Shown here one piece after another: positions 35,583 to 45,396 of a stretch of DNA of 64,000 nucleotides; within the stretch, counting starts at the first letter, position 1; every line of letters starts with the position of its first letter. Source of the DNA: a virus. The notes below the pieces were generated by a model that saw only the letters and a program-made list of their open reading frames with translations, did no database searches and had not been told where the DNA came from. The position numbers were made by a program, and so were the translations under genes. The stretch lies in the IMG/VR virus record IMGVR_UViG_3300027710_001279, positions 1-64,000 of that record; one strand, written 5' to 3'.

Positions 35583-36284
35583 ATGAAAAAGAACCTTTTA
35601 ATTATCCCTGCGGGACCTAATGCACTATTTCAACAGTGGAGCGACTATTCAAACTGTAATTTTGATCTAGTAGTTCTTAATTGGAGTTCTGCTCCACTGA
35701 CTAACTTAGAACATGCTGCCTTTGTAGAAACTACTCCAGGACAGAAGTGGAAAATTGTTGCAGACTTTGCCAGCAAGCAAGATTTAAGTCGTTACGAATA
35801 CATTTGGATACTAGACGACGATTGCCTAACTACTCCAGAAGGTGTTGAAGCTACATTTAATTTCTGCAAGGAAAACAATTTGGATATGGCGCAACCAGCA
35901 CTAACCCCGGACAGCTCCCGCACTCATCCTAGCACATTTTTAATTCCCGGTGCAAAGATGCATATTACTGACACAGTAGAAATTATGGCACCTATCTTTA
36001 GTAAGGCAGCTTGGCCAGTATGTTCAGAACACTTTGGCAAGATGCCAGCTGGTGTAGGTTACGGTCTTGAAGGATATTGGGCAGGTGTTCTTGACAGTAA
36101 ATCAGGTACAACTAAGTTTGGTGGACAAGTAGCTGTCATTGACTTATATCCAGTAAAGCATACAAAGACAGTAACTGGACCTGCTGAATACGCAAGAATG
36201 GGCATTAACCCAGATGATGACGGACACTACTTTGCTAATCTCGGGCACGGTTGGACATTTAACACTATTGAAGTCATAATGTGA
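35583..36284 (+). CDS. DUF707-like putative glycosyltransferase
   Basis: YEYIWILDDD, AQPALT, VEIMAPIFS. Confidence 0.7.
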   Translation: MKKNLLIIPAGPNALFQQWSDYSNCNFDLVVLNWSSAPLTNLEHAAFVETTPGQKWKIVADFASKQDLSRYEYIWILDDDCLTTPEGVEATFNFCKENNLDMAQPALTPDSSRTHPSTFLIPGAKMHITDTVEIMAPIFSKAAWPVCSEHFGKMPAGVGYGLEGYWAGVLDSKSGTTKFGGQVAVIDLYPVKHTKTVTGPAEYARMGINPDDDGHYFANLGHGWTFNTIEVIM

Positions 36285-36766
36285 TTGCAATAACAGGCCA
36301 TACTCAAGGCATAGGAAAATGTGCCTTTGAAAGATTGAGTCCTAACATAATAGGTTTTAGCAAGTCTACCGGATATGACATTACTAATTTTTTTGATCGT
36401 AAACGGATCATAGATGAATCTGTAAACTGTGATATCTTTATAAACAATGCTACAGCAGAGTTTGGTCAAACATTATTGTTTTTAGAATTGTTTGATGCAT
36501 GGAAACATACTAATAAAACTATTATCAATGTTGGTAGTAGAATTGCAGAAGTATTAGTATTACCAAATACTCATCAACACTTATTAAAGTATCAAGCTGA
36601 AAAACTTATTTTAAAAGAAATGAGCAATAGAGTAGTCGGGTTGTGTAAAGTTAAATATAAATGGTTTGGTTATGTAGGTACAGAAAAGATACTAAAAAAA
36701 TATCCGCATTTTACAGAACAAGATTACATCACAGAAGATCAAGCAGTTAACATAATACTTTCATGA
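36281..36766 (+). CDS. Short-chain dehydrogenase/reductase-like protein
   Basis: ITGHTQGIG, FINNA, INVGS, YQAEK. Confidence 0.75.
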   Translation: MIAITGHTQGIGKCAFERLSPNIIGFSKSTGYDITNFFDRKRIIDESVNCDIFINNATAEFGQTLLFLELFDAWKHTNKTIINVGSRIAEVLVLPNTHQHLLKYQAEKLILKEMSNRVVGLCKVKYKWFGYVGTEKILKKYPHFTEQDYITEDQAVNIILS

Positions 36767-37248
36767 TAAAAAAAGTAATAGATACTATCAACGTTGATCC
36801 TATTTTAGATAGTTTTTTTAAACTTAATAAAGATATAGTATGGACAATTTATCCGCAAGGACAGCAAGTTGGATTACAATATAAACCAAACGAAGACCAT
36901 TGGTCAAGTGCAGTAGGAAAAAGTCAAGGTAAAGAACTAGAATACACTGAATTAAATCCTTTCTTTAAAGATACAATATTCGAAACTATTATTAACCAAT
37001 ATAATTTAAAAAGAACTAGATTAATGTGGGTTAATCCAAAATCATGTTATAGCTTACACCAAGATGAAACTCCAAGGATTCATATTCCATTGATTACAAA
37101 CTCCGAATGTTATTTTTTATTCCCACCCGGAATGATGTTTTGCTTAGATGTAAATTCAGTATGGTGGGTAAATACAAAATTAAAACATACATTCTTAAAT
37201 TGTTCAGAAGAACCAAGATTACATCTTGTTGGAGTAATTGAAAAATAA
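36763..37248 (+). CDS. 2OG-Fe(II) oxygenase / Asp-Asn beta-hydroxylase-like
   Basis: HQD..RIHIPL..HTFLN..RLHLV. Confidence 0.75.
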   Translation: MIKKVIDTINVDPILDSFFKLNKDIVWTIYPQGQQVGLQYKPNEDHWSSAVGKSQGKELEYTELNPFFKDTIFETIINQYNLKRTRLMWVNPKSCYSLHQDETPRIHIPLITNSECYFLFPPGMMFCLDVNSVWWVNTKLKHTFLNCSEEPRLHLVGVIEK

Positions 37249-37256
37249 CCCAAATG

Positions 37257-37313
37257 TGTTGTAAAAATACAACACTAAAAGAGGTTGACAAGTTGGTAAA
37301 ACCGTGTTATAAT
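37257..37313 (+). promoter_or_regulatory. Palindromic operator plus sigma70 promoter
   Basis: TGTTGTAAAAATACAACA (37257-37274); TTGACA-N17-TATAAT (37285-37313). Confidence 0.8.
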
Positions 37314-37322
37314 ATATGTAAC

Positions 37323-37508
37323 ATGATTAATATACACCCAACACTTAACCCACTTGAAGTTATCCTTGTCGAAGAGGATATGGCTAAAAAGGGGATTACA
37401 CACTATACAATGACACAGGGCAACGACTGCATCTGGGTCTACTATGGTCCAATGAACCTCTATTATATATTTAAAGAAGGACGTATTCATGACATCCAAA
37501 TTGATTAA
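37323..37508 (+). CDS. Hypothetical phage protein
   Basis: ATG just downstream of the promoter. Confidence 0.65.
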   Translation: MINIHPTLNPLEVILVEEDMAKKGITHYTMTQGNDCIWVYYGPMNLYYIFKEGRIHDIQID

Positions 37509-37698
37509 AGTTATGCAAGAGACCACAGAGTGGTCCGATGGTGGCTCCAATCACACGTATATATTTAAAGATAAGCCCACAGGTCGTAGTGCCGCGGCCA
37601 TTGCCTACATACCGGCAGGTTCTAAGATAGTGCAACGTTTCAAGAAGCCTATTAACTTAGACCTTAAGGGCAGGACGTTTGTAGAGTTGACAGACTGA
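37489..37698 (+). CDS. Hypothetical phage protein
   Basis: AAGG SD; overlaps the previous ORF. Confidence 0.65.
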   Translation: MTSKLIKVMQETTEWSDGGSNHTYIFKDKPTGRSAAAIAYIPAGSKIVQRFKKPINLDLKGRTFVELTD

Positions 37699-37715
37699 TA
37701 ATTTTCTAGTATAAT
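37687..37715 (+). promoter_or_regulatory. sigma70 promoter for tRNA-Arg(TCT)
   Basis: TTGACA-N17-TATAAT. Confidence 0.8.
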
Positions 37716-37722
37716 AAGACAA

Positions 37723-37799
37723 CTGACTGTAGCTCAACTGGATAGAGCAACAGCCTTCTAAGCTGTAGGTCGGGGGTTCGAGTCCCTCCAGTCAGGCCA
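37723..37799 (+). tRNA. tRNA-Arg(TCT)
   Basis: Cloverleaf; ACAGC-CT TCT AA-GCTGT; CCA end. Confidence 0.93.
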
Positions 37800-37804
37800 A
37801 ATTC

Positions 37805-37880
37805 GTTGTAAAAATACAACAAAAATAATTTGCCAAAAATGCAAAAAGTGGTTGACAACGAGACTAAATAAATGTATAAT
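37805..37880 (+). promoter_or_regulatory. Palindromic operator plus sigma70 promoter of the leader/attenuator
   Basis: GTTGTAAAAATACAAC (37805-37820); TTGACA-N17-TATAAT (37852-37880) with TAAATA in the spacer. Confidence 0.85.
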
Positions 37881-37938
37881 TAACACATAGACAGCAATGA
37901 TGCTGTTTATGGAAACAAAAGGTTTTAAGAGAAATAAA

Positions 37939-38085
37939 ATGCAATCGTGCAATAAACATCAACAATTTAATACGATGCCCAAACAGGCAGGTGTAATAGC
38001 CTCCAATTGGTCAACGATTGATTGTGGTAGTTTATCATATGATCGCACACCAGAGATTACCAGGGTCCGGGAGGACTTAATGTAA
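37939..38085 (+). CDS. Putative attenuator leader peptide (48 aa, all 20 amino acids)
   Basis: MQSCNKHQQFNTMPKQAGVIASNWSTIDCGSLSYDRTPEITRVREDLM; last codons form the 5' arm of an antiterminator. Confidence 0.65.
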   Translation: MQSCNKHQQFNTMPKQAGVIASNWSTIDCGSLSYDRTPEITRVREDLM

Positions 38086-38120
38086 ATGTAAGTTTACACT
38101 TAAACTCCAAGGACCCTAGG
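38060..38120 (+). promoter_or_regulatory. Antiterminator hairpin
   Basis: AGGGTCC/GGACCCT, GGAG/CTCC, TTAA/TTAA and TGTAAA/TTTACA stacked helices. Confidence 0.7.
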
Positions 38121-38147
38121 ATTAAAACCCTGGGGTTTTTTGTTTTT
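38111..38147 (+). terminator. Intrinsic terminator, mutually exclusive with the antiterminator
   Basis: ACCCTAGG-ATTAAAAC-CCTGGGGT followed by TTTTTGTTTTT. Confidence 0.85.
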
Positions 38148-38159
38148 GGAAAAAGAAAA

Positions 38160-38321
38160 ATGATAGAACAAGATAAGAAGAAACAACGAGAAGTTGAGTT
38201 TATACAACAGTATACTCTATCCAAAGAAGATTTTCGTAAGATGGTCTTAGAAAAGATGGAACGTGCTAAGGTATATAGTCAAGCCGTTAGAAAGCGCGAG
38301 ATTGCTCAAGAGCGATTGTAG
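38160..38321 (+). CDS. Small charged helical protein (53 aa)
   Basis: MIEQDKKKQREVEFIQQYTLSKEDFRKMVLEKMERAK..; first ORF after the terminator. Confidence 0.55.
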   Translation: MIEQDKKKQREVEFIQQYTLSKEDFRKMVLEKMERAKVYSQAVRKREIAQERL

Positions 38322-38322
38322 A

Positions 38323-38540
38323 CCGCAAAGTGTGAATAGGTAGCAACGCGAGCTACGGGATGCACTTAAAACATGTCTCAAATGGGCGGCAACTAGGATG
38401 GAATCCCTTGTGTGGGACTAAAAATCAGTTCGTATTAAAGCATTCTTTAAGAACAGGCAGCCTAAGTATTTTAGAGTGCTTTAATACACACTCTCTACTT
38501 CCGTTGACTGGAAGGACAGGGCACGTAGTGCCGAGAGTGT
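38323..38540 (+). ncRNA. Candidate structured ncRNA(s)
   Basis: Hairpins GTAGC/GCTAC and TCCC/GGGA; 15-bp stem 38432-38487; three-way junction 38488-38540. Confidence 0.45.
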
Positions 38541-38550
38541 TATCTATTTT

Positions 38551-38637
38551 GGAGATGTAGGAAAATTGGTAACCCCAGTGGACTGTAAATCCGCCGCCCG
38601 AAAGGCACTACTGGTTCGACTCCAGTCGTCTCCACCA
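38551..38637 (+). tRNA. tRNA-Tyr(GTA)
   Basis: Cloverleaf with V-arm; CT GTA AA loop; CCA. Confidence 0.93.
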
Positions 38638-38642
38638 AATTT

Positions 38643-38717
38643 GGTCCCATAGTATAGCGGTAAGTATAGCGGCTTGTCACGCCGTCGGCAGGGGTTCGAT
38701 TCCCCTTGGGACCGCCA
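38643..38717 (+). tRNA. tRNA-Asp(GTC)
   Basis: GCGGC-TT GTC AC-GCCGT; G discriminator; CCA. Confidence 0.93.
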
Positions 38718-38723
38718 AATTAT

Positions 38724-38798
38724 GCTCGGTTCGTCTATCGGTAAGGACGCTAGCCTTTCAAGTTGGAAAGACGGGTTCGATTCCCGTACCGAGTACCA
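38724..38798 (+). tRNA. tRNA-Glu(TTC)
   Basis: CTAGC-CT TTC AA-GTTGG; CCA. Confidence 0.9.
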
Positions 38799-38805
38799 AA
38801 TAATA

Positions 38806-38895
38806 GGAAGCGTGGCAGAGTCCGGCTTATTGCAACAGTCTTGAAAACTGTCGGCTCGAAAGGGTCCGTGAGTTCGAATCTCACCGCTTCCACCA
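38806..38895 (+). tRNA. tRNA-Ser(TGA)
   Basis: ACAGT-CT TGA AA-ACTGT; long V-arm; CCA. Confidence 0.93.
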
Positions 38896-38902
38896 AAAGA
38901 GG

Positions 38903-38930
38903 TTGACATTCTACTTAATTCGTGTATAAT
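38903..38930 (+). promoter_or_regulatory. sigma70 promoter internal to the tRNA array
   Basis: TTGACA-N16-TATAAT. Confidence 0.7.
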
Positions 38931-38937
38931 TATATAT

Positions 38938-39051
38938 GCGACCGTAAGTGGAATATGGCAGACCTCCCGCTATGCTCATAGCATAGAATGGGGACGGGGC
39001 GATGAGTCTAACTCGCAGCCTTTGCAGGTTCAAGCCCTGCCGGTCGTACCA
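38938..39051 (+). ncRNA. Aberrant tRNA-like RNA (114 nt) with elongated anticodon arm (CAT loop) and long V-arm
   Basis: Acceptor GCGACCG/CGGTCGT-A-CCA; T-arm GCAGG-TTCAAGC-CCTGC; Leu-like D-loop; arm TCCC..CTATG-CTCATAG-CATAG..GGGA. Confidence 0.7.
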
Positions 39052-39055
39052 AATT

Positions 39056-39146
39056 CGAGAGTGGGCAGGATGGTAATGCAGCTGATTGCTAATCAGTAGA
39101 CCAGCTTAAAACTGGTCACAGGGTTCGACTCCCTGACTCTCGGCCA
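39056..39146 (+). tRNA. tRNA-Ser(GCT)
   Basis: GCTGA-TT GCT AA-TCAGT; V-arm; G73; CCA. Confidence 0.9.
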
Positions 39147-39150
39147 ATTT

Positions 39151-39224
39151 GTATCCCTGGTGTAATGGCAGCACCGCGGTCTCCAAAACCGTCAGTCAAG
39201 GTTCGAGTCCTTGGGGGTACGCCA
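39151..39224 (+). tRNA. tRNA-Trp(CCA)
   Basis: GCGGT-CT CCA AA-ACCGT; CCA. Confidence 0.92.
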
Positions 39225-39230
39225 ATCAAC

Positions 39231-39307
39231 GGTGACCATAGTGTAAAGGTTTAGCACCGCACTCTGTGAAAGTGCTAGAATGGGATCGTTCCCCATTGGT
39301 TACCCCA
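39231..39307 (+). tRNA. tRNA-His(GTG)
   Basis: G-1:C73; GCACT-CT GTG AA-AGTGC; atypical T-loop ATCGTTC. Confidence 0.88.
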
Positions 39308-39317
39308 AGGAGCTATA

Positions 39318-39728
39318 ATGGAAAAACTAAAAACATTCAATATTTTGAAAGGTTCTGTTCGCAGGTTCGATGAACTGCTAGGACGAACATTGTATCGTGT
39401 ATCTGCAGATGAGGCAGAACTAACATTGTATCTGTCGGATACAAACTATGTAAGATTCTGTCACCACCAAGATTGTTGCGAAAGTGTTTACATAGAAGAT
39501 ATCTGTGGAGATCTCAACGACCTTGTTGGGGCACCTCTAGTAGAAGCTGAAGAAGTTTCTAACTATGATGATGGCCCAGTAGATAGTAGCGATGAATCTT
39601 ACACATGGACATTTTATCGTTTCCGCACACGGAAAGGTAGTGTGTCAGTTCGATGGTATGGGTCCAGCAATGGATACTATTCCGAAAGTGTCAGCGTAGA
39701 ATTTGTTGACACTACAATACCCGGATAG
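39318..39728 (+). CDS. Hypothetical phage protein (acidic)
   Basis: SD AAGGAG; HHQDCCESVYIEDI..WYGSSNGYYSE motifs. Confidence 0.8.
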   Translation: MEKLKTFNILKGSVRRFDELLGRTLYRVSADEAELTLYLSDTNYVRFCHHQDCCESVYIEDICGDLNDLVGAPLVEAEEVSNYDDGPVDSSDESYTWTFYRFRTRKGSVSVRWYGSSNGYYSESVSVEFVDTTIPG

Positions 39729-39793
39729 CTCAGTGGTAGAGCAGCGCCTTGATAAGGCGTTGGTCGCAAGTTCAAATCTTGCTCCGGGTACCA
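39719..39793 (+). tRNA. tRNA-Ile(GAT)
   Basis: GCGCC-TT GAT AA-GGCGT; CCA. Confidence 0.92.
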
Positions 39794-39797
39794 ATTT

Positions 39798-39872
39798 ACC
39801 GCTGTCGTATAATGGAGTATACCCCTCGCTACGAACGAGGAAATGGAGGTTCGATTCCTTCCGGCGGTACCA
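39798..39872 (+). tRNA. tRNA-Arg(ACG)
   Basis: CCTCG-CT ACG AA-CGAGG; CCA. Confidence 0.92.
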
Positions 39873-39878
39873 AATAAT

Positions 39879-39954
39879 GGGACCATAGCTCAGTTGGTAG
39901 AGCAGTAGACTTTTAATCTATTGGTCGGGAGTTCGAATCTCCCTGGTCCTACCA
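39879..39954 (+). tRNA. tRNA-Lys(TTT)
   Basis: GTAGA-CT TTT AA-TCTAT; CCA. Confidence 0.93.
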
Positions 39955-39958
39955 TAAC

Positions 39959-40034
39959 AGACATATAGCATAGTGGCTAATGCAGTTCCTTCATACGGAA
40001 AAGATCGTTGGTTCAAGTCCAACTATGTCTACCA
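39959..40034 (+). tRNA. tRNA-Met(CAT) elongator (or Ile2)
   Basis: GTTCC-TT CAT AC-GGAAA; paired 1:72; CCA. Confidence 0.85.
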
Positions 40035-40041
40035 ATTCAAT

Positions 40042-40117
40042 ACCAACTTAGCTGATGTGGTCATAGCAACGGTTTGAAGCACCGTGGAATGAGGTTCGAT
40101 CCCTCAAGTTGGTACCA
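40042..40117 (+). tRNA. tRNA-Phe(GAA)
   Basis: ACGGT-TT GAA GC-ACCGT; CCA. Confidence 0.88.
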
Positions 40118-40124
40118 AGTTTGT

Positions 40125-40198
40125 TCCCGGATAGTGTAGTGGTAACACAACAGACTTTGACTCTGCTATTGTAGGTTCGATTCCTACTCCGGGTGCCA
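40125..40198 (+). tRNA. tRNA-Gln(TTG)
   Basis: ACAGA-CT TTG AC-TCTGC; G73; CCA. Confidence 0.9.
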
Positions 40199-40219
40199 CA
40201 AAAATGTTTTAAAAAACCG

Positions 40220-40286
40220 TTGACAGATCTTAAAAAAGACTGTATAATAATTACTTGTTAAGCAATTAACACCGTTCTTTAAAAAT
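40220..40286 (+). promoter_or_regulatory. sigma70 promoter followed by a boxB-like hairpin and boxA-like antitermination signal
   Basis: TTGACA-N17-TATAAT (40220-40248); hairpin TAATTACTTGTTAAGCAATTA; GTTCTTTAAAAAT (40274-40286). Confidence 0.65.
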
Positions 40287-40300
40287 ATAATTTGATATTT

Positions 40301-40387
40301 GCCCGAGTGGTGAAATAGGTAGACACAAGAGACTTAAAATCTCTCGCTCTAACAGGCGTGCCGGTTCGATTCCGGCCTCGGGTACCA
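40301..40387 (+). tRNA. tRNA-Leu(TAA)
   Basis: AGAGA-CT TAA AA-TCTCT; V-arm; CCA. Confidence 0.93.
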
Positions 40388-40553
40388 TTAGTTGATAGCA
40401 TTCAGTGGGTATCGTATATGGACGCATATACTAGGCGGGCTAGTCGGGCCATCGATCAGTCCTAACACAACCACAGCAATGGCTTAGGAAGGGAAGCACC
40501 CGACTCCAAAATTCGCTCGTCGTCATAGACTGTGAATACTATCAACTAATGGT
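40384..40553 (+). ncRNA. Candidate structured ncRNA closed by a 21-bp stem
   Basis: ACCATTAGTTGATAGCATTCA / TGAATACTATCAACTAATGGT; inner stems GTATATG/CATATAC, AGTCGGG/CCCGACT, TCCTAA/TTAGGA. Confidence 0.55.
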
Positions 40554-40560
40554 ATTAAAT

Positions 40561-40636
40561 GTCCCGTTCGTCTAGAGGCCTAGGACACCACCCTTTCACG
40601 GTGACTACACCAGTTCGAATCTGGTACGGGACGCCA
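40561..40636 (+). tRNA. tRNA-Glu(TTC), second copy
   Basis: CCACC-CT TTC AC-GGTGA; host-like GTCCC..AGAGGCCTAGGAC body; CCA. Confidence 0.92.
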
Positions 40637-40644
40637 AAGTTTTA

Positions 40645-40734
40645 CCCGCAGTAGCTCAAGGAGAGCAGGTCGGCTTATATCCGATTAATCTAGATAAGGT
40701 CCAGGATGGGGTTCGATTCCTCACTGCGGGACCA
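40645..40734 (+). tRNA. tRNA with TAT anticodon (Ile-UAU) and long variable arm
   Basis: CCCGCAG/CTGCGGG-A-CCA; GTCGG-CT TAT AT-CCGAT; about 21-nt variable region. Confidence 0.75.
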
Positions 40735-40763
40735 TTGACAGTTTATAAATATTCTGTTATAAT
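40735..40763 (+). promoter_or_regulatory. Dual sigma70 / late-type promoter
   Basis: TTGACA-N17-TATAAT with TATAAATA (40744-40751) in the spacer. Confidence 0.75.
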
Positions 40764-40771
40764 AGTTTTAT

Positions 40772-40848
40772 GCCCAGGTGATGGAATTGGTATACGTGTT
40801 GGTCTTAGAAGCCAAATTTTGCGAGTTCGAGTCTCGCCCTGGGCACCA
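40772..40848 (+). tRNA. tRNA-Leu(TAG), short variable loop
   Basis: TTGGT-CT TAG AA-GCCAA; no V-arm; CCA. Confidence 0.9.
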
Positions 40849-40930
40849 TATTGAAGCACATTAAAGATAGGGTCGTAGCGGTTCTATGAACTTTAATACA
40901 TACCAAGGTAGTTAGTGTGTTTCAATATGG
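40846..40930 (+). repeat. Long inverted repeat (processing-stem-like) between tRNA-Leu and tRNA-Ala
   Basis: CCATATTGAAGCACATTAA / TTAGTGTGTTTCAATATGG. Confidence 0.7.
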
Positions 40931-41004
40931 GGGTGTAGCTCAGTTGGGAGAGCGCCAGCTTTGCAAGCTGGATGTCGCAGGTTCGATCCCTGTCACCTCC
41001 ACCA
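40929..41004 (+). tRNA. tRNA-Ala(TGC)
   Basis: G3:U70; CCAGC-TT TGC AA-GCTGG; CCA. Confidence 0.95.
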
Positions 41005-41010
41005 GTTTAT

Positions 41011-41086
41011 TCCCTAGTAGCTCAGCGGTAGAAGCACCTGACTGTTAATCAGGGTGTCGGTGGTTCGATCCCACCCTGGGGAGCCA
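41011..41086 (+). tRNA. tRNA-Asn(GTT)
   Basis: CCTGA-CT GTT AA-TCAGG; G73; CCA. Confidence 0.93.
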
Positions 41087-41106
41087 GTTTTTTTAAGGAT
41101 TTAAAT

Positions 41107-41283
41107 ATGTCAAAAGGTAGTAGCCCTAGGCCATATAGTGTTAGCCAAAAACAATTTGCTAATAACTTTGATGCAATTTTTCGCAAGCCTGATCCTAGGA
41201 TAGTCGAAGAACAACAAATTGAAGATGAAGAATTCGAAAGAATTGCTCAATCAAGTCAAGTTAAAGATACTACAAAAGATTAA
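41107..41283 (+). CDS. Small hypothetical phage protein (58 aa)
   Basis: SD AAGGA; MSKGSSPRPYSVSQKQFANNFDAIFRK.. Confidence 0.7.
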   Translation: MSKGSSPRPYSVSQKQFANNFDAIFRKPDPRIVEEQQIEDEEFERIAQSSQVKDTTKD

Positions 41284-41291
41284 TAATTAAA

Positions 41292-41366
41292 GCCGACTTA
41301 GCACAGTGGTAGTGCAATCGCCTTGTAAGCGATAGGTCATCAGTTCGAATCCGATAGTCGGCACCA
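41292..41366 (+). tRNA. tRNA-Thr(TGT)
   Basis: ATCGC-CT TGT AA-GCGAT; CCA. Confidence 0.93.
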
Positions 41367-41369
41367 AAT

Positions 41370-41443
41370 GCGGGGTTAGTTTAATGGTAAAACAGCAGAT
41401 TTCCAATCTTCGGTCGAGAGTTCGATTCTCTCACTCCGCTCCA
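41370..41443 (+). tRNA. tRNA-Gly(TCC)
   Basis: GCG start; TT TCC AA loop; U73; CCA. Confidence 0.92.
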
Positions 41444-41449
41444 ATTTTC

Positions 41450-41525
41450 GGGTCGTTAGCTCAGTTGGTAGAGCGCCTGCCTTACACGCAGGATGTCGGC
41501 AGTTCGAGCCTGTCACGACCCACCA
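41450..41525 (+). tRNA. tRNA-Val(TAC)
   Basis: CCTGC-CT TAC AC-GCAGG; CCA. Confidence 0.95.
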
Positions 41526-41531
41526 GTATTT

Positions 41532-41608
41532 CGGAGTGTAGCACAGCCTGGTAGTGCGCCTGGTTTGGGACCAGGAGGTCCAAGGTTCGAATCCTTGTAC
41601 TCCGACCA
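41532..41608 (+). tRNA. tRNA-Pro(TGG)
   Basis: CCTGG-TT TGG GA-CCAGG; CCA. Confidence 0.95.
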
Positions 41609-41614
41609 AGTTTT

Positions 41615-41900
41615 GTAAGACACATGGGTTGACCACAACGCCACGCATCAAGGTAAGGTGTCTATAGTGTAAGTAGCAGGTTTGGTCATGCTTACACACA
41701 ATCCCAACGTTCCGGGTGTCTCCGGATAGTGTGACCCACACGATGAGAAGTAGTGTGACAACTACGGGTGGTAGTCTTTAAACCGAAAGGCCGCTAGCAA
41801 TGCGAGAACGGTCCCTGTCGGGAAGCGGGTGGAAGGAGTGTGTGATGGGTATGATAGCGTCATATCTTGATACTCTATAATTACCGCCGGGGGATGCAGA
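41615..41900 (+). ncRNA. Candidate large structured ncRNA
   Basis: GC-rich non-coding stretch with many helices: AGACAC/GTGTCT, GTGTAAGTA/TGCTTACAC, TCCGG/CCGGA, GTAGT/ACTAC, CC-GAAA-GG, GGGTATGAT/GTCATATCT. Confidence 0.55.
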
Positions 41901-41901
41901 G

Positions 41902-41969
41902 CATATATAAACACACTCTAGCCAAACGGCAACAAGTGGGCTCATGCCCATGAAGTGTGTTTATATATG
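41902..41969 (+). repeat. 16-bp perfect inverted repeat enclosing two small hairpins
   Basis: CATATATAAACACACT / AGTGTGTTTATATATG. Confidence 0.75.
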
Positions 41970-41984
41970 TTTTGGGAGAATTAT

Positions 41985-42137
41985 ATGCCAATGTATGAGA
42001 CAACTGTAAGAACACCACAGGGTGAAGAAAAGAAAAGAATCTATGCGGATACTCCGCAAGAAGCTAAAAAACTTTTTGAACAACTGTACGGTGGACCAAG
42101 AGCAGTGCCATACATACCGCATATAATTCCAAGTTAA
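41985..42137 (+). CDS. Small hypothetical phage protein (50 aa)
   Basis: SD GGAG; MPMYETTVRTPQGEEKKRIYAD.. Confidence 0.7.
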   Translation: MPMYETTVRTPQGEEKKRIYADTPQEAKKLFEQLYGGPRAVPYIPHIIPS

Positions 42138-42141
42138 TTAT

Positions 42142-42220
42142 CGCGGGGTAGGGGAGTCTAGTCGTCCCCGCCAGTCTCATAAGCTGGAGATCGGAGGTGC
42201 GAATCCTTCCCCCGCAACCA
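42142..42220 (+). tRNA. tRNA-fMet(CAT), initiator-type
   Basis: C1:A72 mismatch; CGCGGGG start; CT CAT AA loop; CCA. Confidence 0.88.
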
Positions 42221-42243
42221 TTTTTTTAAACGTAAAGGTATAT

Positions 42244-42474
42244 ATGGCTATTAAACAACTAAGTCGCGGTACAACAATTGACACTGAAACATGTGTAGAA
42301 ATGGTCGGGGGCAATCGATTTGATCTAGTATTGATTGCGGCTGTTAGAGCTAGAGAACTAGCACGTCAACATCGCCATGCTGAAAACAAAGGGCAGTTAA
42401 ATGCTCCTGTAGCCGCTTTGCTTGATATCCAAGAAGGCAGAGTTGGTAACGAATATCTTAAAAGAATTCGTTAA
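42244..42474 (+). CDS. rpoZ: RNA polymerase omega subunit
   Basis: CVEMVGGNRFDLVLIAAVRAREL..PVAALLDIQEG. Confidence 0.85.
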   Translation: MAIKQLSRGTTIDTETCVEMVGGNRFDLVLIAAVRARELARQHRHAENKGQLNAPVAALLDIQEGRVGNEYLKRIR

Positions 42475-42480
42475 TTAAAT

Positions 42481-42558
42481 GCAACGGTGGCAGAGCGGCC
42501 CAATGCAACGGATTGCAAATCCGTAAAACCGGGGGTTCAAATCCCTCCCGTTGCTCCA
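42481..42558 (+). tRNA. tRNA-Cys(GCA)
   Basis: ACGGA-TT GCA AA-TCCGT; U73; CCA. Confidence 0.92.
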
Positions 42559-42582
42559 ATATCAAATTATAAATATTTTAAT

Positions 42583-42656
42583 GCGGGTATGATGTAAAGG
42601 TAACCTGAAACCTTGCCAAGGTTTATTTCCGAGTTCGATTCTCGGTACCCGCTCCA
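42583..42656 (+). tRNA. tRNA-Gly(GCC)
   Basis: AAACC-TT GCC AA-GGTTT; U73; CCA. Confidence 0.9.
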
Positions 42657-42664
42657 AACAACAC

Positions 42665-42711
42665 GGCCCTACCCTCTAGTAACATAGTTCTACGGTGGGG
42701 TTTTTCTTTTT
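42665..42711 (+). terminator. Probable terminator ending the tRNA operon
   Basis: GGCCCTACC..GGTGGGGTT, then TTTCTTTTT. Confidence 0.55.
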
Positions 42712-42896
42712 GCGTTATATAATCTTTCTTTGATTTCGTTGCGGACAATGTAGTCTGTGGAAGCGATTCTTGCCAACCACCCAGATAATAGCCCACGTTG
42801 ATAGATTAATGTTTCCATTTTATCGCCCTTATAACAGAGTTCGAGTAACTCGTCGAGCTCTTTTTGGATCTCTTCAAGGTGGGTTTTTGGCTTCAT
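42690..42896 (-). CDS. Hypothetical protein
   Basis: 68-aa ORF; TAAATA 6 nt upstream of ATG on the minus strand. Confidence 0.6.
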   Translation of the reverse strand: MKPKTHLEEIQKELDELLELCYKGDKMETLIYQRGLLSGWLARIASTDYIVRNEIKERLYNAKRKTPP

Positions 42897-42912
42897 AATA
42901 TATATTTATAGG

Positions 42913-42941
42913 TTGACAAACTGGTAAAACCGTGTTATAAT
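42913..42941 (+). promoter_or_regulatory. sigma70 promoter (near copy of the 37285 promoter)
   Basis: TTGACA-AACTGGTAAAACCGTGT-TATAAT. Confidence 0.85.
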
Positions 42942-42965
42942 ATATACATAGCAAGGAGCAATATA

Positions 42966-43364
42966 ATGGAATTTCTCGTCGAAACTCGTAGCGTAAAGAA
43001 ACGTAAATTTATAGAGGCAATTTTGCCCTCTATGATTAAACAACTTAAATTGGAAAACAGTAAGAAAGTTTTGCTGGTTCGAGTTGCCAATGAGTGCGAT
43101 GGACAGGGTATGACTATGCCACTGAATGGATTAGATGCCTATGTCGTAGTTGTCAAGCCAGGTTGGTTTGCCGATATGGGTGTTACCCTTGCACACGAGA
43201 TGGTTCACGTGCGTCAAATGGCCAAAGGTATTCTCAAAGTAGAAAATGGTGTTAACTACTGGCGTGGGAAGAAATACAGCAAGAAGACTAAGTATTTGGA
43301 CATGCCTTGGGAACAAGATGCGTTTTCAAAGCAAGAACTTATTTTTAGGAGGGCTGTAGAATAA
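42966..43364 (+). CDS. HExxH zinc metallopeptidase-like phage protein
   Basis: TLAHEMVHVRQ..PWEQDA. Confidence 0.7.
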   Translation: MEFLVETRSVKKRKFIEAILPSMIKQLKLENSKKVLLVRVANECDGQGMTMPLNGLDAYVVVVKPGWFADMGVTLAHEMVHVRQMAKGILKVENGVNYWRGKKYSKKTKYLDMPWEQDAFSKQELIFRRAVE

Positions 43365-43570
43365 TGGAAATCTCAAGAGCAGAACAAAGTGTTATAAAAT
43401 ATAATCTAGAACAGTACCGCTTAGATCAAGCTCGTTTGGAAAAACAGCGAGAACAAGACTACGCCAAAAAGATTGAAGAACGTAGACTTGATCAAGTTAT
43501 AGCAGAACGAGTATCAAGAAATCTTCGTTTAGATTTGGACAAGGGTCGCATTTTAGATATAGAATGTTAG
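43364..43570 (+). CDS. Hypothetical coiled-coil protein
   Basis: Coupled ORF ending KGRILDIEC. Confidence 0.7.
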   Translation: MEISRAEQSVIKYNLEQYRLDQARLEKQREQDYAKKIEERRLDQVIAERVSRNLRLDLDKGRILDIEC

Positions 43571-43579
43571 GAGGCAATT

Positions 43580-44116
43580 ATGCCATGGATTGAAAATGTA
43601 GGTCTTGGAGATATTCCAAAAGGTCGGCATCACGATGCTGGCGAGAATTCGATGTTGATTCAGATTGTTGATCCGGCAATGGAGTTTCCTACCCCTATGC
43701 ACAAGTTCAAAGAGACTCATCAGTTTGAGTTTTTGGATGTAGAGGAAAAGGACGAAGTGTTGGAAGAAGCTATGAAGTGTAGTCACGAACAAGCTGCCGA
43801 GTTGGTTCGCCTACTACAACACGCATTGGCTAATCGAATGAATGTAGTCGTGCATTGTCATGCAGGTGTTTGTCGAAGTGGTGCAGTCTGCGAAGTTGGC
43901 GTCATGATGGGTTTTAATGATACTGAAGTCTTCCGTAGTCCTAACCTCCTAGTCAAGCATCGTATGATGAAGCACTTAGGTTGGACCTACGACGAGAACG
44001 AGCCTCACTCTATTAACGGTATAGGGCTCGATCCAGATTGGACCAACAACAACGAAAAGGTGTTTACACTCGCAGGCGCAAGACGAGAGCGTAGACTAAG
44101 AGAAGGTGATATTTAA
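43580..44116 (+). CDS. Cys-based (PTP/dual-specificity) phosphatase-like protein
   Basis: VHCHAGVCRSG CX5R motif; SD AGGAGG. Confidence 0.8.
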   Translation: MPWIENVGLGDIPKGRHHDAGENSMLIQIVDPAMEFPTPMHKFKETHQFEFLDVEEKDEVLEEAMKCSHEQAAELVRLLQHALANRMNVVVHCHAGVCRSGAVCEVGVMMGFNDTEVFRSPNLLVKHRMMKHLGWTYDENEPHSINGIGLDPDWTNNNEKVFTLAGARRERRLREGDI

Positions 44117-44129
44117 AAAGGAGGGCAAG

Positions 44130-44735
44130 ATGCCTAGTGTATTTTTAGTAAGCGATACGCACTTTGGACATACCGGCGTCTGTCGCTTCACACGTAACGA
44201 TGGTGTTACAAAACTTCGCCCATGGGAATCTGCTGAGGAAATGGACGAAGCAATGGTTAAAGCGTGGAACGAACAGGTAAAGCCCACTGACAAGGTTTAC
44301 CATTTAGGTGACGTTGTTATCAATCGTAAAGCGTTAAAAATTATGTCAAGATTAAACGGTGACAAAGTTTTAATTCGTGGTAACCACGATATCTTTAGGG
44401 ATGATGAGTATAGAACTTACTTCCGTGAATTACGTGCCTATCATGTTATGAACGGGATGATCTTGAGCCATATCCCGTTACACTCAGAGTCCATGGGACG
44501 CTTTGGTGTTAACATTCACGGTCACTTACACGCAAACCGTGTGAAGAAGGCTCGCGGTGTTGATGCACGTACTGGAGAAGTTTTATACAGCGATGAAAAC
44601 GATGTTCGTTACCATTGCGTTTGTGTAGAACAAACTCCAAACTTTGCGCCTATACTGTTTGAAGATGTCATTAAGAACATCGAAGCAGAAGGTGGTAGTG
44701 TAGGTTTTAAGAACGGCAACGGTCCGACAATGTAA
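44130..44735 (+). CDS. Calcineurin-like phosphoesterase
   Basis: SDTHFGH, HLGD, GNHD, SHIP, HGHLH; SD AGGAGG. Confidence 0.88.
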   Translation: MPSVFLVSDTHFGHTGVCRFTRNDGVTKLRPWESAEEMDEAMVKAWNEQVKPTDKVYHLGDVVINRKALKIMSRLNGDKVLIRGNHDIFRDDEYRTYFRELRAYHVMNGMILSHIPLHSESMGRFGVNIHGHLHANRVKKARGVDARTGEVLYSDENDVRYHCVCVEQTPNFAPILFEDVIKNIEAEGGSVGFKNGNGPTM

Positions 44736-44736
44736 T

Positions 44737-44853
44737 ATGATCTACATTACTAACAAATACAATTCCATCCGACTACCCAATGAACCGGGTATGTTAGATT
44801 GGTTATTAGAAAATTATCCTAATTCAGGATATCACGTAGTAGAGATAAAATAA
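44737..44853 (+). CDS. Small hypothetical protein (38 aa)
   Basis: Fills the gap exactly between coupled genes. Confidence 0.45.
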   Translation: MIYITNKYNSIRLPNEPGMLDWLLENYPNSGYHVVEIK

Positions 44854-44854
44854 T

Positions 44855-45322: not shown

Positions 45323-45387
45323 TTCAATGGATAGAATGCTTGGCTTCGAACCAAGCGGTGTGGGTTCGATTCCTGCAGGACCGGCCA
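45313..45387 (+). tRNA. tRNA-Arg(TCG)
   Basis: CTTGG-CT TCG AA-CCAAG; CCA. Confidence 0.92.
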
Positions 45388-45396
45388 TCGTGTCGT

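What the first reader, a model, noticed from the sequence alone, without database searches (positions are those of the whole stretch)
37852..38147. All-20-amino-acid leader-peptide attenuator at the head of the phage tRNA array: a candidate sensor of host tRNA-pool collapse
Seen: a perfect TTGACA-N17-TATAAT promoter (37852-37880) precedes a 48-codon ORF (37939-38085). The ORF contains all 20 amino acids by codon 39 and uses 34 different sense codons, spreading synonymous choices over isoacceptor classes (Ser TCG/TCC/TCA/AGT, Thr ACG/ACA/ACC, Arg CGC/AGG/CGG, Ile ATA/ATT, Gln CAA/CAG). Codons 41-49 form the 5' arm of a long hairpin (38060-38120). Its 3' arm, GGACCCTAGG (38111-38120), is also the 5' arm of a U-tailed intrinsic terminator (38111-38147), so the two structures are mutually exclusive. 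Established: this is the logic of trp/his/thr attenuators, but those leaders are enriched for one or a few amino acids. Anticodon-nuclease defences (PrrC, PARIS AriB, retron PtuAB) cleave tRNAs, and phage tRNAs can rescue infection. Inference: a ribosome reaching the stop melts the antiterminator and transcription terminates. Stalling at almost any codon (tRNA cleavage, starvation) permits read-through into a small ORF, structured RNAs and tRNA-Tyr/Asp/Glu/Ser and beyond. I know of no described pan-codon attenuator controlling a phage tRNA array. Caveat: internal promoters at 38903, 40220 and 40735 mean that only the first block depends strictly on it.
Basis: partly seen in the sequence, partly recalled or inferred. 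Interest (0 to 1): 0.93.

Follow-up and report, generated by a model that had tools for sequence, protein, structure and literature searches.

The report
All-amino-acid leader switch before phage tRNAs
An uncultured giant phage and about 100 or more relatives put a tiny 48-codon test gene, which evolution keeps stocked with all 20 amino acids, inside a stop/go RNA switch in front of their tRNA genes, so they probably make more tRNA when ribosomes decode poorly.

Summary
One peptide with all 20 amino acids is not remarkable (4.6% of 48-residue windows of this phage's own proteins). The family evidence is strong. Of 60 distinct relatives, 56 keep all 20. Cys, Tyr and His are mostly single-copy but sit at different positions; 0 of 2000 tree-aware simulations match this. 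Leaders cover on average 29.8 of 32 wobble-decoding classes (background 22.3 ± 2.2). When relatives were found through the RNA switch alone, 85 of 95 unique leader peptides held all 20, against 18 of 403 control ORFs. The antiterminator stem covaries and is translated in two different frames, yet the stop stays in place. Antiterminator and terminator states are nearly equal in energy. tRNA arrays follow in 77 of 80 and 84 of 86 loci. The best reading is a ribosome-mediated attenuator that gauges decoding of every amino acid. Function is untested, 'pan-codon' is overstated, and the trigger is unknown. This scan found the same family before on other DNA; I found no published account.

The parts
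37852..37880 (+). Sigma-70-type promoter, TTGACA-N17-TATAAT, of the leader transcript
   Evidence: In 61 unique related loci the best upstream promoter scores 12/12 in 47, 11/12 in 13 and 10/12 in 1.
37887..37910 (+). Stem-loop at the predicted 5' end of the transcript
   Evidence: fold. In 60 of 60 family members the first ~37 nt after the -10 box fold into a hairpin of at least 6 pairs, although there are 49 distinct sequences.
37939..38085 (+). Leader ORF: 48 codons plus TAA, all 20 amino acids, 34 codons, 29 of 32 wobble classes
   Evidence: ATG 37939 is the conserved start. The in-frame upstream ATG at 37897 is interrupted by stops in L003 and L006.
37939..38055 (+). 'Sampler' core, codons 1-39 (Met to the Glu of DRTPE), lying before the antiterminator arm
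   Evidence: The core alone holds all 20 amino acids here and in 51 of 60 family members. Indels within the core are all multiples of 3. Third-position entropy is highest: 24.9 against 16.9 and 16.6.
38060..38120 (+). Antiterminator: long hairpin whose 5' arm is codons 41-48 and whose apical stem holds the stop codon
   Evidence: One basal pair is A:U in 39, G:C in 16 and G:U in 5 members, with 0 mismatches in 60. One C-G to U-A double change is seen in L076. The apical stem covaries.
38109..38147 (+). Intrinsic terminator: stem 38109-38140 (core CCCTAGG/CCTGGGG), U6-G-U5 tract to 38147. Its 5' arm is shared with the antiterminator's 3' arm
   Evidence: The stem is nearly invariant in 60 members. 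One compensatory G-C to U-A change is seen in L048.
38160..38321 (+). First read-through cargo: a 53-codon charged ORF
   Evidence: Conserved in L003, L006 and L007. It uses 14 amino-acid types. No PHROG or Pfam match.
38322..38550 (+). Read-through cargo: conserved structured RNA region with no family name
   Evidence: The fold of 38300-38552 has z -3.51. It contains blocks conserved in the close relatives. No Rfam match above noise.
38551..38895 (+). First tRNA block (Tyr-gta, Asp-gtc, Glu-ttc, Ser-tga). No consensus promoter lies between the terminator and this block
   Evidence: The next perfect promoter is at 38903.

Best explanation
This is a ribosome-mediated transcription attenuator whose leader ORF samples decoding of every amino acid.

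Transcription starts at a strong promoter (37852-37880). As the RNA emerges, the long hairpin 38060-38120 forms first and holds the 5' half of the terminator, so RNA polymerase reads on into a small ORF, a structured RNA and the first tRNA genes.

If a ribosome translates the 48-codon leader without delay and reaches the TAA inside the hairpin's apical stem, it occupies the hairpin's 5' arm. The freed 3' arm then pairs with CCTGGGG, and the U-tailed terminator stops transcription at about 38147.

A ribosome held up at any of roughly the first 39 codons, or no ribosome at all, leaves the antiterminator intact and gives read-through. The core is kept stocked with all 20 amino acids and about 30 of 32 wobble classes. 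A shortage of almost any charged tRNA should therefore raise transcription of the phage's tRNA array, and adequate decoding should shut it down. This would be a feedback gauge for tRNA supply.

What is shown: the anatomy, its conservation, covariation in the stems, selection for completeness of the leader, and the link to tRNA arrays.

What is inferred: that the leader is translated, the polarity of the switch, and what triggers it in nature.
For: 1. Conserved module. Peptide-based search gave 92 relatives in IMG/VR, of which 80 were kept. Promoter, 5' hairpin, ORF, hairpin and terminator are all present.

2. Link to tRNA arrays. Same-strand arrays follow in 77 of 80 loci; the other 3 have no more than 457 nt of downstream DNA. 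Loci with at least 8 kb downstream hold 20-41 tRNAs, with 0-1 tRNA in the 10 kb upstream.

3. Selection for all 20 amino acids.
- 56 of 60 distinct members have all 20.
- Column shuffling gives a mean of 28.8 ± 2.8, and 0 of 5000 shuffles reach the observed value.
- Tree-aware simulation with independent columns gives a mean of 28.6 ± 7.4 and a maximum of 49; 0 of 2000 reach the observed value.
- Cys is single-copy in 51 of 60 but sits at 7 alternative single-Cys columns. Tyr is single-copy in 54 of 60 at 3 columns. His is single-copy in 53 of 60 at 4 columns.
- The core before the hairpin alone has all 20 in 51 of 60. The chance for a 39-residue window is 0.93%.

4. Ascertainment independent of the peptide. 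A search for the shared arm plus terminator gave 115 evaluable loci. Of these, 109 have an ORF of 38-70 codons ending 12-45 nt before the arm. Of 95 unique peptides, 85 have all 20, including 50 of 60 not seen before, many of them very divergent. Control ORFs picked by the same rule give 18 of 403, or 4.5%. In 84 of 86 loci with enough DNA, at least 3 tRNAs follow.

5. Codon breadth. The window leader covers 29 of 32 wobble classes and the family mean is 29.8. Background 48-codon windows give 22.3 ± 2.2; 0.09% reach 29. Background windows that already have all 20 amino acids give 24.95 ± 1.38. Resampling synonymous codons predicts 26.9 classes, and 36 of 60 members beat that at p<=0.05. Members realise 96% of the classes attainable for their peptide.

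6. The RNA switch.
- The antiterminator basal stem covaries with 0 mismatches in 60.
- The same conserved 5' arm is read in two frames (40 against 20 members), yet the stop (TAA in 59 of 60) stays 14 nt (14-27) past it. It lies 20-35 nt before the 3' arm and 52-66 nt before the end of the U tract.
- The two states are nearly equal in energy: ddG +1.9 ± 1.7 kcal/mol, with the antiterminator lower in 53 of 60.
- Nascent RNA up to 38127 folds as the antiterminator. Masking the RNA up to a ribosome sitting at the stop leaves only the terminator.

7. Dependence on read-through. No promoter scoring at least 10/12 lies between the terminator and the first tRNA in 49 of 61 loci.

8. Against a folded small protein. 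AlphaFold2 with 60 sequences gives pLDDT 57.8, pTM 0.11 and no secondary structure. There are no Pfam or PHROG hits.

9. Presence in RNA libraries. Freshwater metatranscriptome contigs match the leader; for example a 167-nt contig covers 37921-38087 with 1 difference. This shows presence in RNA libraries only.
Against: - There is no functional evidence at all. Translation, polarity and response are inferred. The RNA data are assembled contigs, which cannot show transcript ends or levels, and DNA carry-over is possible.
- The peptide order and many synonymous sites are far more conserved than a pure sampler needs (FNTMPKQ, DRTPE; GAT, ACA, CCA and GAG fixed in 59-60 of 60). The ORF body has only a weak consensus structure (-5.6 kcal/mol, 1 covarying pair). 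No complementary partner exists in the window. Some other function, such as a nascent-peptide effect or a protein or RNA partner, is not excluded.
- Leader codons do not follow array content. All 23 codon/anticodon tests gave p>0.05 in 45 unique loci. AAG occurs in 2 of 45 leaders although Lys(ctt) is in 35 arrays. TTG occurs in 8 leaders although Leu(caa) is in 39 arrays.
- The two states are close in energy, so strand displacement could let the terminator form without a ribosome. With Glu39 in the A site the predicted fold already tips towards the terminator, so the last sampler codons may not signal in the proposed direction.
- The Shine-Dalgarno match is only 3 nt in 27 of 60 members.
- Control can only be partial. 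There are internal promoters at 38903, 40220 and 40735, and 12 of 61 loci have a strong promoter before the first tRNA.
- The tree used was built from the same short region. The peptide search patterns favour retention of some residues, though not of Cys or His.
Confidence: 0.6

Rival explanations
1. It is a general sensor of translation capacity, not a tRNA gauge. The switch has the same architecture but reports any slowing or lack of ribosomes (host shut-off, ribosome-targeting toxins or antibiotics, ribosome shortage), as the whiB7 and toiL upstream ORFs do. The all-20 content only broadens the range of inputs.
For: Absence of any ribosome also gives the antiterminator state. Leader codons do not track the tRNA repertoire. 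Published upstream ORFs of this logic respond to many stresses (PMC10274678, abstract and section 7 read; PMC12121999, title and start of abstract from the listing).
Against: A generic stall sensor needs no complete amino-acid set. Yet completeness is actively maintained by compensating changes, and synonymous codons are spread over wobble classes. The regulated genes are tRNAs in 77 of 80 and 84 of 86 loci.
Confidence: 0.15
2. It is a small-protein gene with its own leaky terminator. The 48-residue product has a function of its own (for example, binding a host or phage factor). The hairpin and terminator merely end or stabilise its mRNA, and the tRNAs are made by leak-through and from internal promoters.
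For: Strong positional conservation of FNTMPKQ, W24 and DRTPE. Moderate purifying selection: 7293 synonymous against 8014 non-synonymous single-base codon differences. Strong promoter.
Against: Rare residues move position while their presence is kept, which a folded or binding peptide would not tolerate. The C-terminal 8-10 residues are read in two frames over the same RNA. There is no confident fold and no family match. Very divergent leaders found through the RNA switch still hold all 20 amino acids. The overlap of the two stems covaries.
Confidence: 0.08
3. The polarity is reversed or the coupling differs. Efficient translation close behind RNA polymerase favours read-through (as in pyrBI), or stalls in the hairpin's 5' arm are what matters.
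For: The energies of the two states are close, so kinetics that cannot be computed here decide the outcome.
Against: The stop lies 20-35 nt before the shared arm, so a ribosome at the stop cannot cover the terminator stem, but it does occupy the antiterminator's 5' arm. All 20 amino acids are placed before that arm in 51 of 60 members.
Confidence: 0.07
4. It is a non-coding structured small RNA of about 260 nt, ended by the terminator, and the ORF is incidental.
For: The whole transcript 37887-38150 folds far better than shuffles (z -5.66, 0 of 200 shuffles as good). It has a conserved 5' hairpin and a terminator.
Against: The ORF is open in 60 of 60 members and in 109 of 115 loci found through the switch. 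Indels in the core are all multiples of 3. Third positions vary most. The all-20 and wobble-class signals only make sense if the RNA is decoded. The ORF body has a weak consensus structure.
Confidence: 0.03

Closest known systems
Leader-peptide attenuators of enterobacterial amino-acid operons (trpL, hisL, leuL, pheL; multivalent thr and ilvGMEDA leaders). From textbook knowledge, recalled
   Same: A short translated leader, an intrinsic terminator, and an antiterminator that shares an arm with it. The position of the ribosome chooses between the two stems. The distance from stop codon to U tract (52-66 nt) is close to my recalled figure of about 70 nt for trpL.
   Different: Those leaders are enriched for one to three amino acids and control biosynthesis of those same amino acids. 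This leader has each rare amino acid about once, keeps all 20, and controls tRNA genes of a phage. With no translation at all, the trp leader terminates (1:2 pairing). This element is predicted to read through.
whiB7 / wblC upstream-ORF attenuator of Actinobacteria (PMC10274678; abstract and section 7 read)
   Same: Stalling in an upstream ORF gives antitermination. [quoted passage not shown] The M. smegmatis ORF encodes 19 of 20 amino acids, and depleting tRNAs or synthetases induces it.
   Different: The whiB7 ORF varies in length and sequence, is enriched for alanine, and lacks several amino acids in M. tuberculosis, so completeness is not conserved. It controls a transcription factor of a bacterium, not tRNA genes of a virus. 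No sequence relation is known.
toiL upstream ORF of E. coli topAI-yjhQ (PMC12121999; title and start of abstract only, listing)
   Same: A regulatory upstream ORF that senses translation stress of several kinds through ribosome stalling.
   Different: By my recollection it works through Rho-dependent termination and control of translation, not an intrinsic terminator. It is not known for amino-acid completeness and has no link to tRNA genes.
Long tRNA operon (trn) of Anabaena PCC 7120, induced under translational stress (PMC8421152 and PMC10272220; titles and starts of abstracts only, listing)
   Same: An extra tRNA array that is kept low and switched on when translation is impaired. This is the same physiological logic as proposed here.
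   Different: According to the PMC10272220 title and abstract start, control is by a protein repressor (TrcR), not by a leader peptide and RNA switch. It is a bacterial megaplasmid array, not a phage one.
T-box riboswitches (recalled)
   Same: A leader RNA that couples tRNA charging status to a choice between terminator and antiterminator.
   Different: A T-box binds one specific uncharged tRNA directly and is not translated. No T-box or other Rfam family matches here.

Membership tests
Ribosome-mediated (leader-peptide) transcription attenuators | Short ORF with a start codon and ribosome-binding region in the 5' leader of the regulated genes | tested here: met
   A 48-codon ORF lies 52 nt after the predicted transcript start. 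It is open in 60 of 60 members. A purine-rich SD-like match of 4-5 nt is present in 33 of 60 members, and of 3 nt in 27.
Ribosome-mediated (leader-peptide) transcription attenuators | Intrinsic terminator between the leader ORF and the regulated genes | tested here: met
   Stem 38109-38140 plus a U6-G-U5 tract. It is nearly invariant in 60 members.
Ribosome-mediated (leader-peptide) transcription attenuators | An alternative antiterminator stem that shares an arm with the terminator | tested here: met
   38111-38120 pairs either with 38060-38068 or with 38129-38135. The antiterminator stem covaries with 0 mismatches in 60. The two states differ by 1.9 ± 1.7 kcal/mol.
Ribosome-mediated (leader-peptide) transcription attenuators | The leader ORF ends where a terminating ribosome masks the antiterminator but not the terminator | tested here: met
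   The stop lies 14 nt (14-27) after the 5' arm core and 20-35 nt before the shared arm, in both tail frames.
Ribosome-mediated (leader-peptide) transcription attenuators | Regulatory codons enriched for the amino acid(s) whose supply is sensed | tested here: not met
   No amino acid is enriched. Cys, Tyr, His and Trp occur about once each, and all 20 are present. This is the feature in which the element departs from the classical members.
Ribosome-mediated (leader-peptide) transcription attenuators | Read-through responds to the supply of charged tRNA and depends on translation of the leader | not testable with these tools
   Needs reporter, in vitro or Ribo-seq/Term-seq data. RNA-library contigs cannot show this.
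whiB7 / wblC upstream-ORF attenuator | Located upstream of a whiB7-family transcription factor in Actinobacteria | tested here: not met
   The downstream genes are a 53-codon ORF, a structured RNA and tRNAs. The record is a virus fragment.
T-box riboswitch or any curated RNA family (Rfam 15) | Match to the family covariance model | tested here: not met
   Only tRNAs and sub-threshold noise at E<=1 over 36000-46000 and at E<=10 over 37880-38560.
Known small-protein families (Pfam-A, PHROGs) | Profile match of the 48-residue product | tested here: not met
   No PHROG match. The only Pfam match is a chance-level one, E 0.16. tblastn against 50,697 phage records found nothing at E<=0.1.

The most novel reading that the evidence does not exclude
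A clade of giant freshwater phages carries a natural 'decoding test strip'. It is a roughly 40-codon sampler that selection keeps complete for all 20 amino acids and about 30 of 32 wobble classes. The time a ribosome takes to cross it sets, through a two-state terminator, how much of a 20-41-gene tRNA array is transcribed. This would be the first leader-peptide attenuator known to control tRNA genes, and the first leader known to be selected for completeness rather than for enrichment. It would give the phage a closed-loop control of the cell's tRNA supply during infection, for instance after host tRNA loss or cleavage.
Probability: 0.55. Interest if true: 0.9.

Novelty: new variant of a known kind. 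Interest (0 to 1): 0.85.

Why it matters
Why phages carry large tRNA sets, and how they use them, is an open question. The explanations on offer include codon-usage matching, replacement of degraded host tRNAs, and escape from tRNA-cutting defences. A built-in sensor that switches the array on when decoding falters would show that tRNA supply is actively regulated during infection. It would also say what the phage 'measures'.

For gene regulation in general, this would extend leader-peptide attenuation from sensors of one amino acid to a sensor of the whole decoding system. The selection for completeness is visible in sequence data alone.

The element is compact (about 300 nt) and uses a sigma-70-type promoter. 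It could be tested directly in E. coli or in a reconstituted translation system, and it might serve as a reporter of tRNA or amino-acid limitation.

Tried and rejected
Close relatives among cultured phages. Megablast of 37700-38560 against 50,697 phage records matched only the tRNA-Arg gene (33 records, 5-7% of the query). Sensitive blastn of 37800-38560 found nothing. tblastn of the peptide found nothing at E<=0.1. The family is therefore known here only from uncultured IMG/VR contigs.

Chance. One all-20 peptide is not unusual: 4.6% of real 48-residue windows, 4.3% for random draws at this composition, and 2 of 66 other ORFs of 40-60 residues in the window. I reject chance only for the family pattern.

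Do leader codons mirror the array? I tested 23 codon/anticodon pairs in 45 unique loci with at least 8 kb downstream. None was associated; the best was Ile(tat)~ATA at p=0.055. Arrays may extend past the 10 kb held.

A strong RNA structure in the ORF body as the cause of the fixed synonymous sites. The consensus fold is only -5.6 kcal/mol, with 12 pairs and 1 covarying. I found no complementary partner of the two invariant ORF segments anywhere in the window.

RNAalifold on the MAFFT alignment of the switch region returned the terminator and the apical stem but not the basal antiterminator stem, because indels put the 5' arm out of register. I counted that stem by anchoring on its motifs instead.

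RNA evidence. 20 of the 23 listed runs hold at most 0.20 of the sampled words. I laid four metatranscriptome runs. These are contigs only, so they give no transcript ends, strand or levels. Stretches without cover (for example just upstream of the promoter and just after the U tract) are not evidence. Contigs of relatives do run across the terminator, but that could be read-through RNA or DNA carry-over.

Structure prediction of the peptide gave no confident fold. This is weak evidence only.

Literature. Searches found no account of a leader-peptide attenuator controlling phage tRNA genes. I judged the listed papers from titles and the starts of abstracts only. Subscription journals and supplementary files were not searchable, so a published description cannot be excluded.

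Rows dropped. L073 (ORF cut by the contig end) was left out of all counts of 60. The 12 weakest of the 92 peptide-search relatives were never returned. In one search, 4 stretches lie too close to a contig end (4) and 6 of 115 evaluable loci had no ORF by the rule. One search picked ORFs by amino-acid count, which is biased; I replaced it with the unbiased rule and do not use it.
Full report
WHAT IS THERE. The window is the first 64 kb of a 73-kb IMG/VR virus record rated about 20% complete, so it is a fragment of a very large phage. It carries a DnaK-like gene and 28 tRNA genes.

At 37852-37880 lies a perfect TTGACA-N17-TATAAT promoter, one of seven perfect ones on the + strand in 36000-46000. 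The predicted transcript begins with a stem-loop (37887-37910). It then carries an ORF, 37939-38085, of 48 codons ending in TAA.

Codons 41-48 form the 5' arm of a long hairpin (38060-38120), which is the minimum-free-energy fold. The hairpin's 3' arm contains CCCTAGG (38114-38120), which can instead pair with CCTGGGG (38129-38135). That pairing forms a terminator followed by U6-G-U5.

One correction is needed. A tRNA-Arg(tct) with its own perfect promoter sits just upstream (37687-37799).

IS ONE SUCH ORF SURPRISING? No. All 20 amino acids occur in 613 of 13436 (4.6%) 48-residue windows of this phage's own proteins. For 39 residues the figure is 0.93%. Coverage of wobble-decoding classes is rarer. 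The leader covers 29 of 32 classes, a level that 0.09% of background 48-codon windows reach or exceed (mean 22.3 ± 2.2).

RELATIVES. No cultured phage record holds the region or the peptide.

A neighbouring gene led to three syntenic IMG/VR contigs that are 84, 80 and 75% identical over the region. In these the ORF is open, at 48, 48 and 47 codons. ATG 37939 is the conserved start, and two deletions are in frame.

An alignment of the four peptides found 92 relatives, of which 80 were kept. With the window these give 61 distinct sequences. I use 60, because L073 is cut by its contig end.

The whole module is conserved:
- The promoter scores 12/12 in 47, 11/12 in 13 and 10/12 in 1 of 61 loci.
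- The 5' hairpin has at least 6 pairs in 60 of 60 members, despite 49 different sequences.
- ORF, hairpin and terminator are all present.

A same-strand tRNA array starts 198-966 nt downstream in 77 of 80 loci. The other three have no more than 457 nt of downstream DNA. With 10-kb flanks, the loci with at least 8 kb downstream hold 20-41 tRNAs, and 0-1 tRNA lies in the 10 kb upstream.

SELECTION FOR COMPLETENESS. Of the 60 members, 56 have all 20 amino acids, and four lack one amino acid each. This is not just inheritance of a conserved sequence, because the rare residues move:
- Cys is present exactly once in 51 of 60 peptides, at seven alternative single-Cys alignment columns.
- Tyr is present once in 54 of 60, at three columns. 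Lineages that lost the Tyr of SYD carry one next to the Trp or after DRTPEI.
- His is present once in 53 of 60, at four columns.

Shuffling each column among the sequences gives 28.8 ± 2.8 complete peptides, against 55 of 58 unique peptides observed; 0 of 5000 shuffles reach that. A simulation on the family tree, with columns evolving independently, gives 28.6 ± 7.4 with a maximum of 49, against 56 of 60 observed. Here 0 of 2000 runs reach the observed value; taken alone, Cys reaches it in 6 of 2000, His in 6 of 2000 and Tyr in 61 of 2000.

The part of the ORF before the hairpin (Met to DRTPE, 36-40 codons) already holds all 20 amino acids in 51 of 60 members.

Codon choice adds to this:
- The family mean is 29.8 wobble classes (range 27-32), against 24.95 ± 1.38 for background windows that also have all 20 amino acids.
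- Redrawing synonymous codons from the phage's usage predicts 26.9 classes, and 36 of 60 members exceed this at p<=0.05. The window itself gives p=0.068.
- Members reach 96% of the classes their peptide could possibly cover.
- Amino acids that occur twice use different classes: Thr ACG/ACA, Pro CCC/CCA, Ala GCA/GCC, Gln CAA/CAG, Arg AGA/CGY, Ile ATA/ATT, Gly GGY/GGA, Leu TTA/CTA.

A SECOND, INDEPENDENT ASCERTAINMENT. The first search used peptide motifs.

I applied a rule that ignores composition: take the first ATG, and take the longest ORF of 38-70 codons that ends 12-45 nt before the arm. By this rule 109 of 115 evaluable loci have such an ORF. Of 95 unique peptides, 85 hold all 20 amino acids, seven hold 19 and three hold 18 or fewer. 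This includes 50 of 60 peptides not seen before, many barely alignable with the window's. Control ORFs picked by the same rule at random places in the same loci give 18 of 403, or 4.5%. An earlier version of this count picked ORFs by amino-acid number; I discard it as biased.

tRNA arrays follow in 84 of 86 of these loci. In 20 of 89 a tRNA also lies within 2 kb upstream.

THE RNA SWITCH.
- The basal stem of the long hairpin covaries. One pair is A:U in 39, G:C in 16 and G:U in 5 members, with no mismatch in 60. L076 changes a C-G pair to U-A.
- The apical stem covaries too.
- The terminator stem is almost invariant, with one compensatory change in L048.
- The conserved 5' arm is translated in two different frames (40 against 20 members), so its conservation is at the RNA level. 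Even so, the stop (TAA in 59 of 60) stays 14 nt (14-27) beyond the arm core. It lies 20-35 nt before the shared arm and 52-66 nt before the end of the U tract.
- When each state is enforced, the antiterminator state is lower in energy by only 1.9 ± 1.7 kcal/mol (lower in 53 of 60). That is what one expects of a switch.

For the window:
- RNA made up to 38127 folds as the antiterminator.
- Masking everything a ribosome at the stop would cover leaves only the terminator.
- A ribosome with Arg36 in the A site leaves the antiterminator intact.
- With Glu39 in the A site the balance already tips slightly towards the terminator.

MECHANISM (INFERRED). By default, or when a ribosome is delayed anywhere in about the first 39 codons, the antiterminator holds and polymerase reads on. 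It then transcribes the 53-codon ORF, a conserved structured RNA (z -3.5, no Rfam family) and tRNA-Tyr, Asp, Glu and Ser. A ribosome that reaches the stop promptly frees the shared arm, and transcription ends at about 38147.

No promoter scoring at least 10/12 lies between the terminator and the first tRNA in 49 of 61 loci, so this first block depends on read-through. Later blocks have their own promoters. The loop would raise tRNA output when any charged tRNA is short and lower it when decoding is adequate.

WHAT SPEAKS AGAINST IT, OR IS UNEXPLAINED.
- There is no functional evidence. RNA-library contigs from freshwater metatranscriptomes match the leader, for example 167 nt with one difference. 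They show neither transcript ends nor regulation.
- The order of residues and many synonymous sites are conserved beyond what a sampler needs. The ORF body has no strong conserved structure and no complementary partner in the window. A nascent-peptide effect or some other partner may exist.
- Leader codons do not follow differences in the arrays' tRNA sets. AAG and TTG are rare in leaders although Lys(ctt) and Leu(caa) tRNAs are common. 'Pan-amino-acid, near-pan-wobble-class' is accurate; 'pan-codon' is not.
- The trigger (anticodon nucleases, host tRNA decay or starvation) is unknown.

RIVALS.
- A generic translation-stress sensor (0.15) does not explain why completeness is maintained.
- A functional small protein with a leaky terminator (0.08) is hard to reconcile with the moving rare residues, the two tail frames, the lack of a confident fold (pLDDT 57.8, pTM 0.11) and the lack of any family match.
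- Reversed polarity (0.07) does not fit the position of the stop.
- A non-coding RNA (0.03) does not fit the open frame, the indels in multiples of 3 and the codon signals.

COMPARISON WITH WHAT IS KNOWN. The element works like the classical leader-peptide attenuators and meets their structural criteria. It fails the criterion of enrichment for the sensed amino acid.

The nearest case in print that I could read is the whiB7 upstream ORF. There, stalling gives antitermination and the ORF's composition decides which starvations are sensed. The M. smegmatis ORF has 19 of 20 amino acids. However, the ORF is variable and alanine-rich, and it controls a transcription factor (PMC10274678; abstract and section 7).

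I know the toiL upstream ORF (PMC12121999) and the stress-induced tRNA operon of Anabaena with its repressor TrcR (PMC8421152, PMC10272220) only from search listings.

Five searches found no account of a leader-peptide attenuator before phage tRNA genes. Subscription journals and supplementary files were not searchable.

EARLIER NOTES OF THIS SCAN. The same family was reported before on other genomes, with the same reading. Codon-matched leaders before tRNA blocks were reported in other phages. I saw these notes only after my own family analysis. They supplied the whiB7 and Anabaena leads, which I then checked in the papers.

VERDICT. It is unproven in function, polarity and trigger. I class it as a new variant of a known kind of regulator, of high interest.

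Noticed in passing
window 37687-37799: A second perfect promoter (37687-37715) drives a lone tRNA-Arg(tct) directly upstream of the leader promoter. Among the 80 relatives from the peptide search, only L020 and L022 have a tRNA in the 3 kb upstream. In the set found through the switch, 20 of 89 loci have a tRNA within 2 kb upstream.
   Followed up: partly
window 38160-38321: A 53-codon, highly charged ORF starts 13 nt after the U tract. It is conserved in L003, L006 and L007, uses only 14 amino-acid types and has no Pfam or PHROG match. Many family members, but not all, have an ATG at this place.
   Followed up: partly
window 38322-38550: A structured RNA region lies between that ORF and tRNA-Tyr. 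It has sequence blocks conserved in the close relatives and folds with z -3.51 (38300-38552). No Rfam family matches. RNA-library contigs of relatives cover parts of it. Its function is unknown.
   Followed up: partly
window 37966-37987 and 38041-38057: Two stretches inside the leader ORF (coding FNTMPKQ and DRTPE) are almost invariant even at synonymous sites. The ORF body has only a weak consensus structure, and there is no complementary partner in the window. This is unexplained. A nascent-peptide or codon-specific role is possible.
   Followed up: partly
loci L100-L179 (tRNA arrays downstream of the leader): Lys(ctt) tRNA is present in 35 of 45 arrays and Leu(caa) in 39 of 45. Their codons AAG and TTG occur in only 2 and 8 of the 45 leaders. 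The first tRNA after the leader is Tyr(gta) in 23, Asp(gtc) in 13 and Ile(gat) in 7 of 60 unique loci.
   Followed up: partly
window 36000-46000: There are seven perfect 12/12 TTGACA-N16/17-TATAAT promoters on the + strand within 10 kb. Relaxed promoter-like matches are no more frequent than in shuffles: 25 against 24.8.
   Followed up: no
window 8616-10499: A 627-residue DnaK/Hsp70-like gene in the phage: PHROG 22485, up to 69% identity to bacterial-type DnaK in phage-labelled records, and 48-58% to huge uncultured phages and Lak phages.
   Followed up: no
L002:1819-2210: ARAGORN calls a tmRNA gene (tag peptide ANNESYALAA) on a related viral contig, upstream of the homologue of the 161-residue gene.
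   Followed up: no
window 40645-40734: A 90-nt tRNA-Ile with anticodon tat. This anticodon is present in 41 of 45 related arrays, and ATA is a conserved leader codon at position 20.
   Followed up: no
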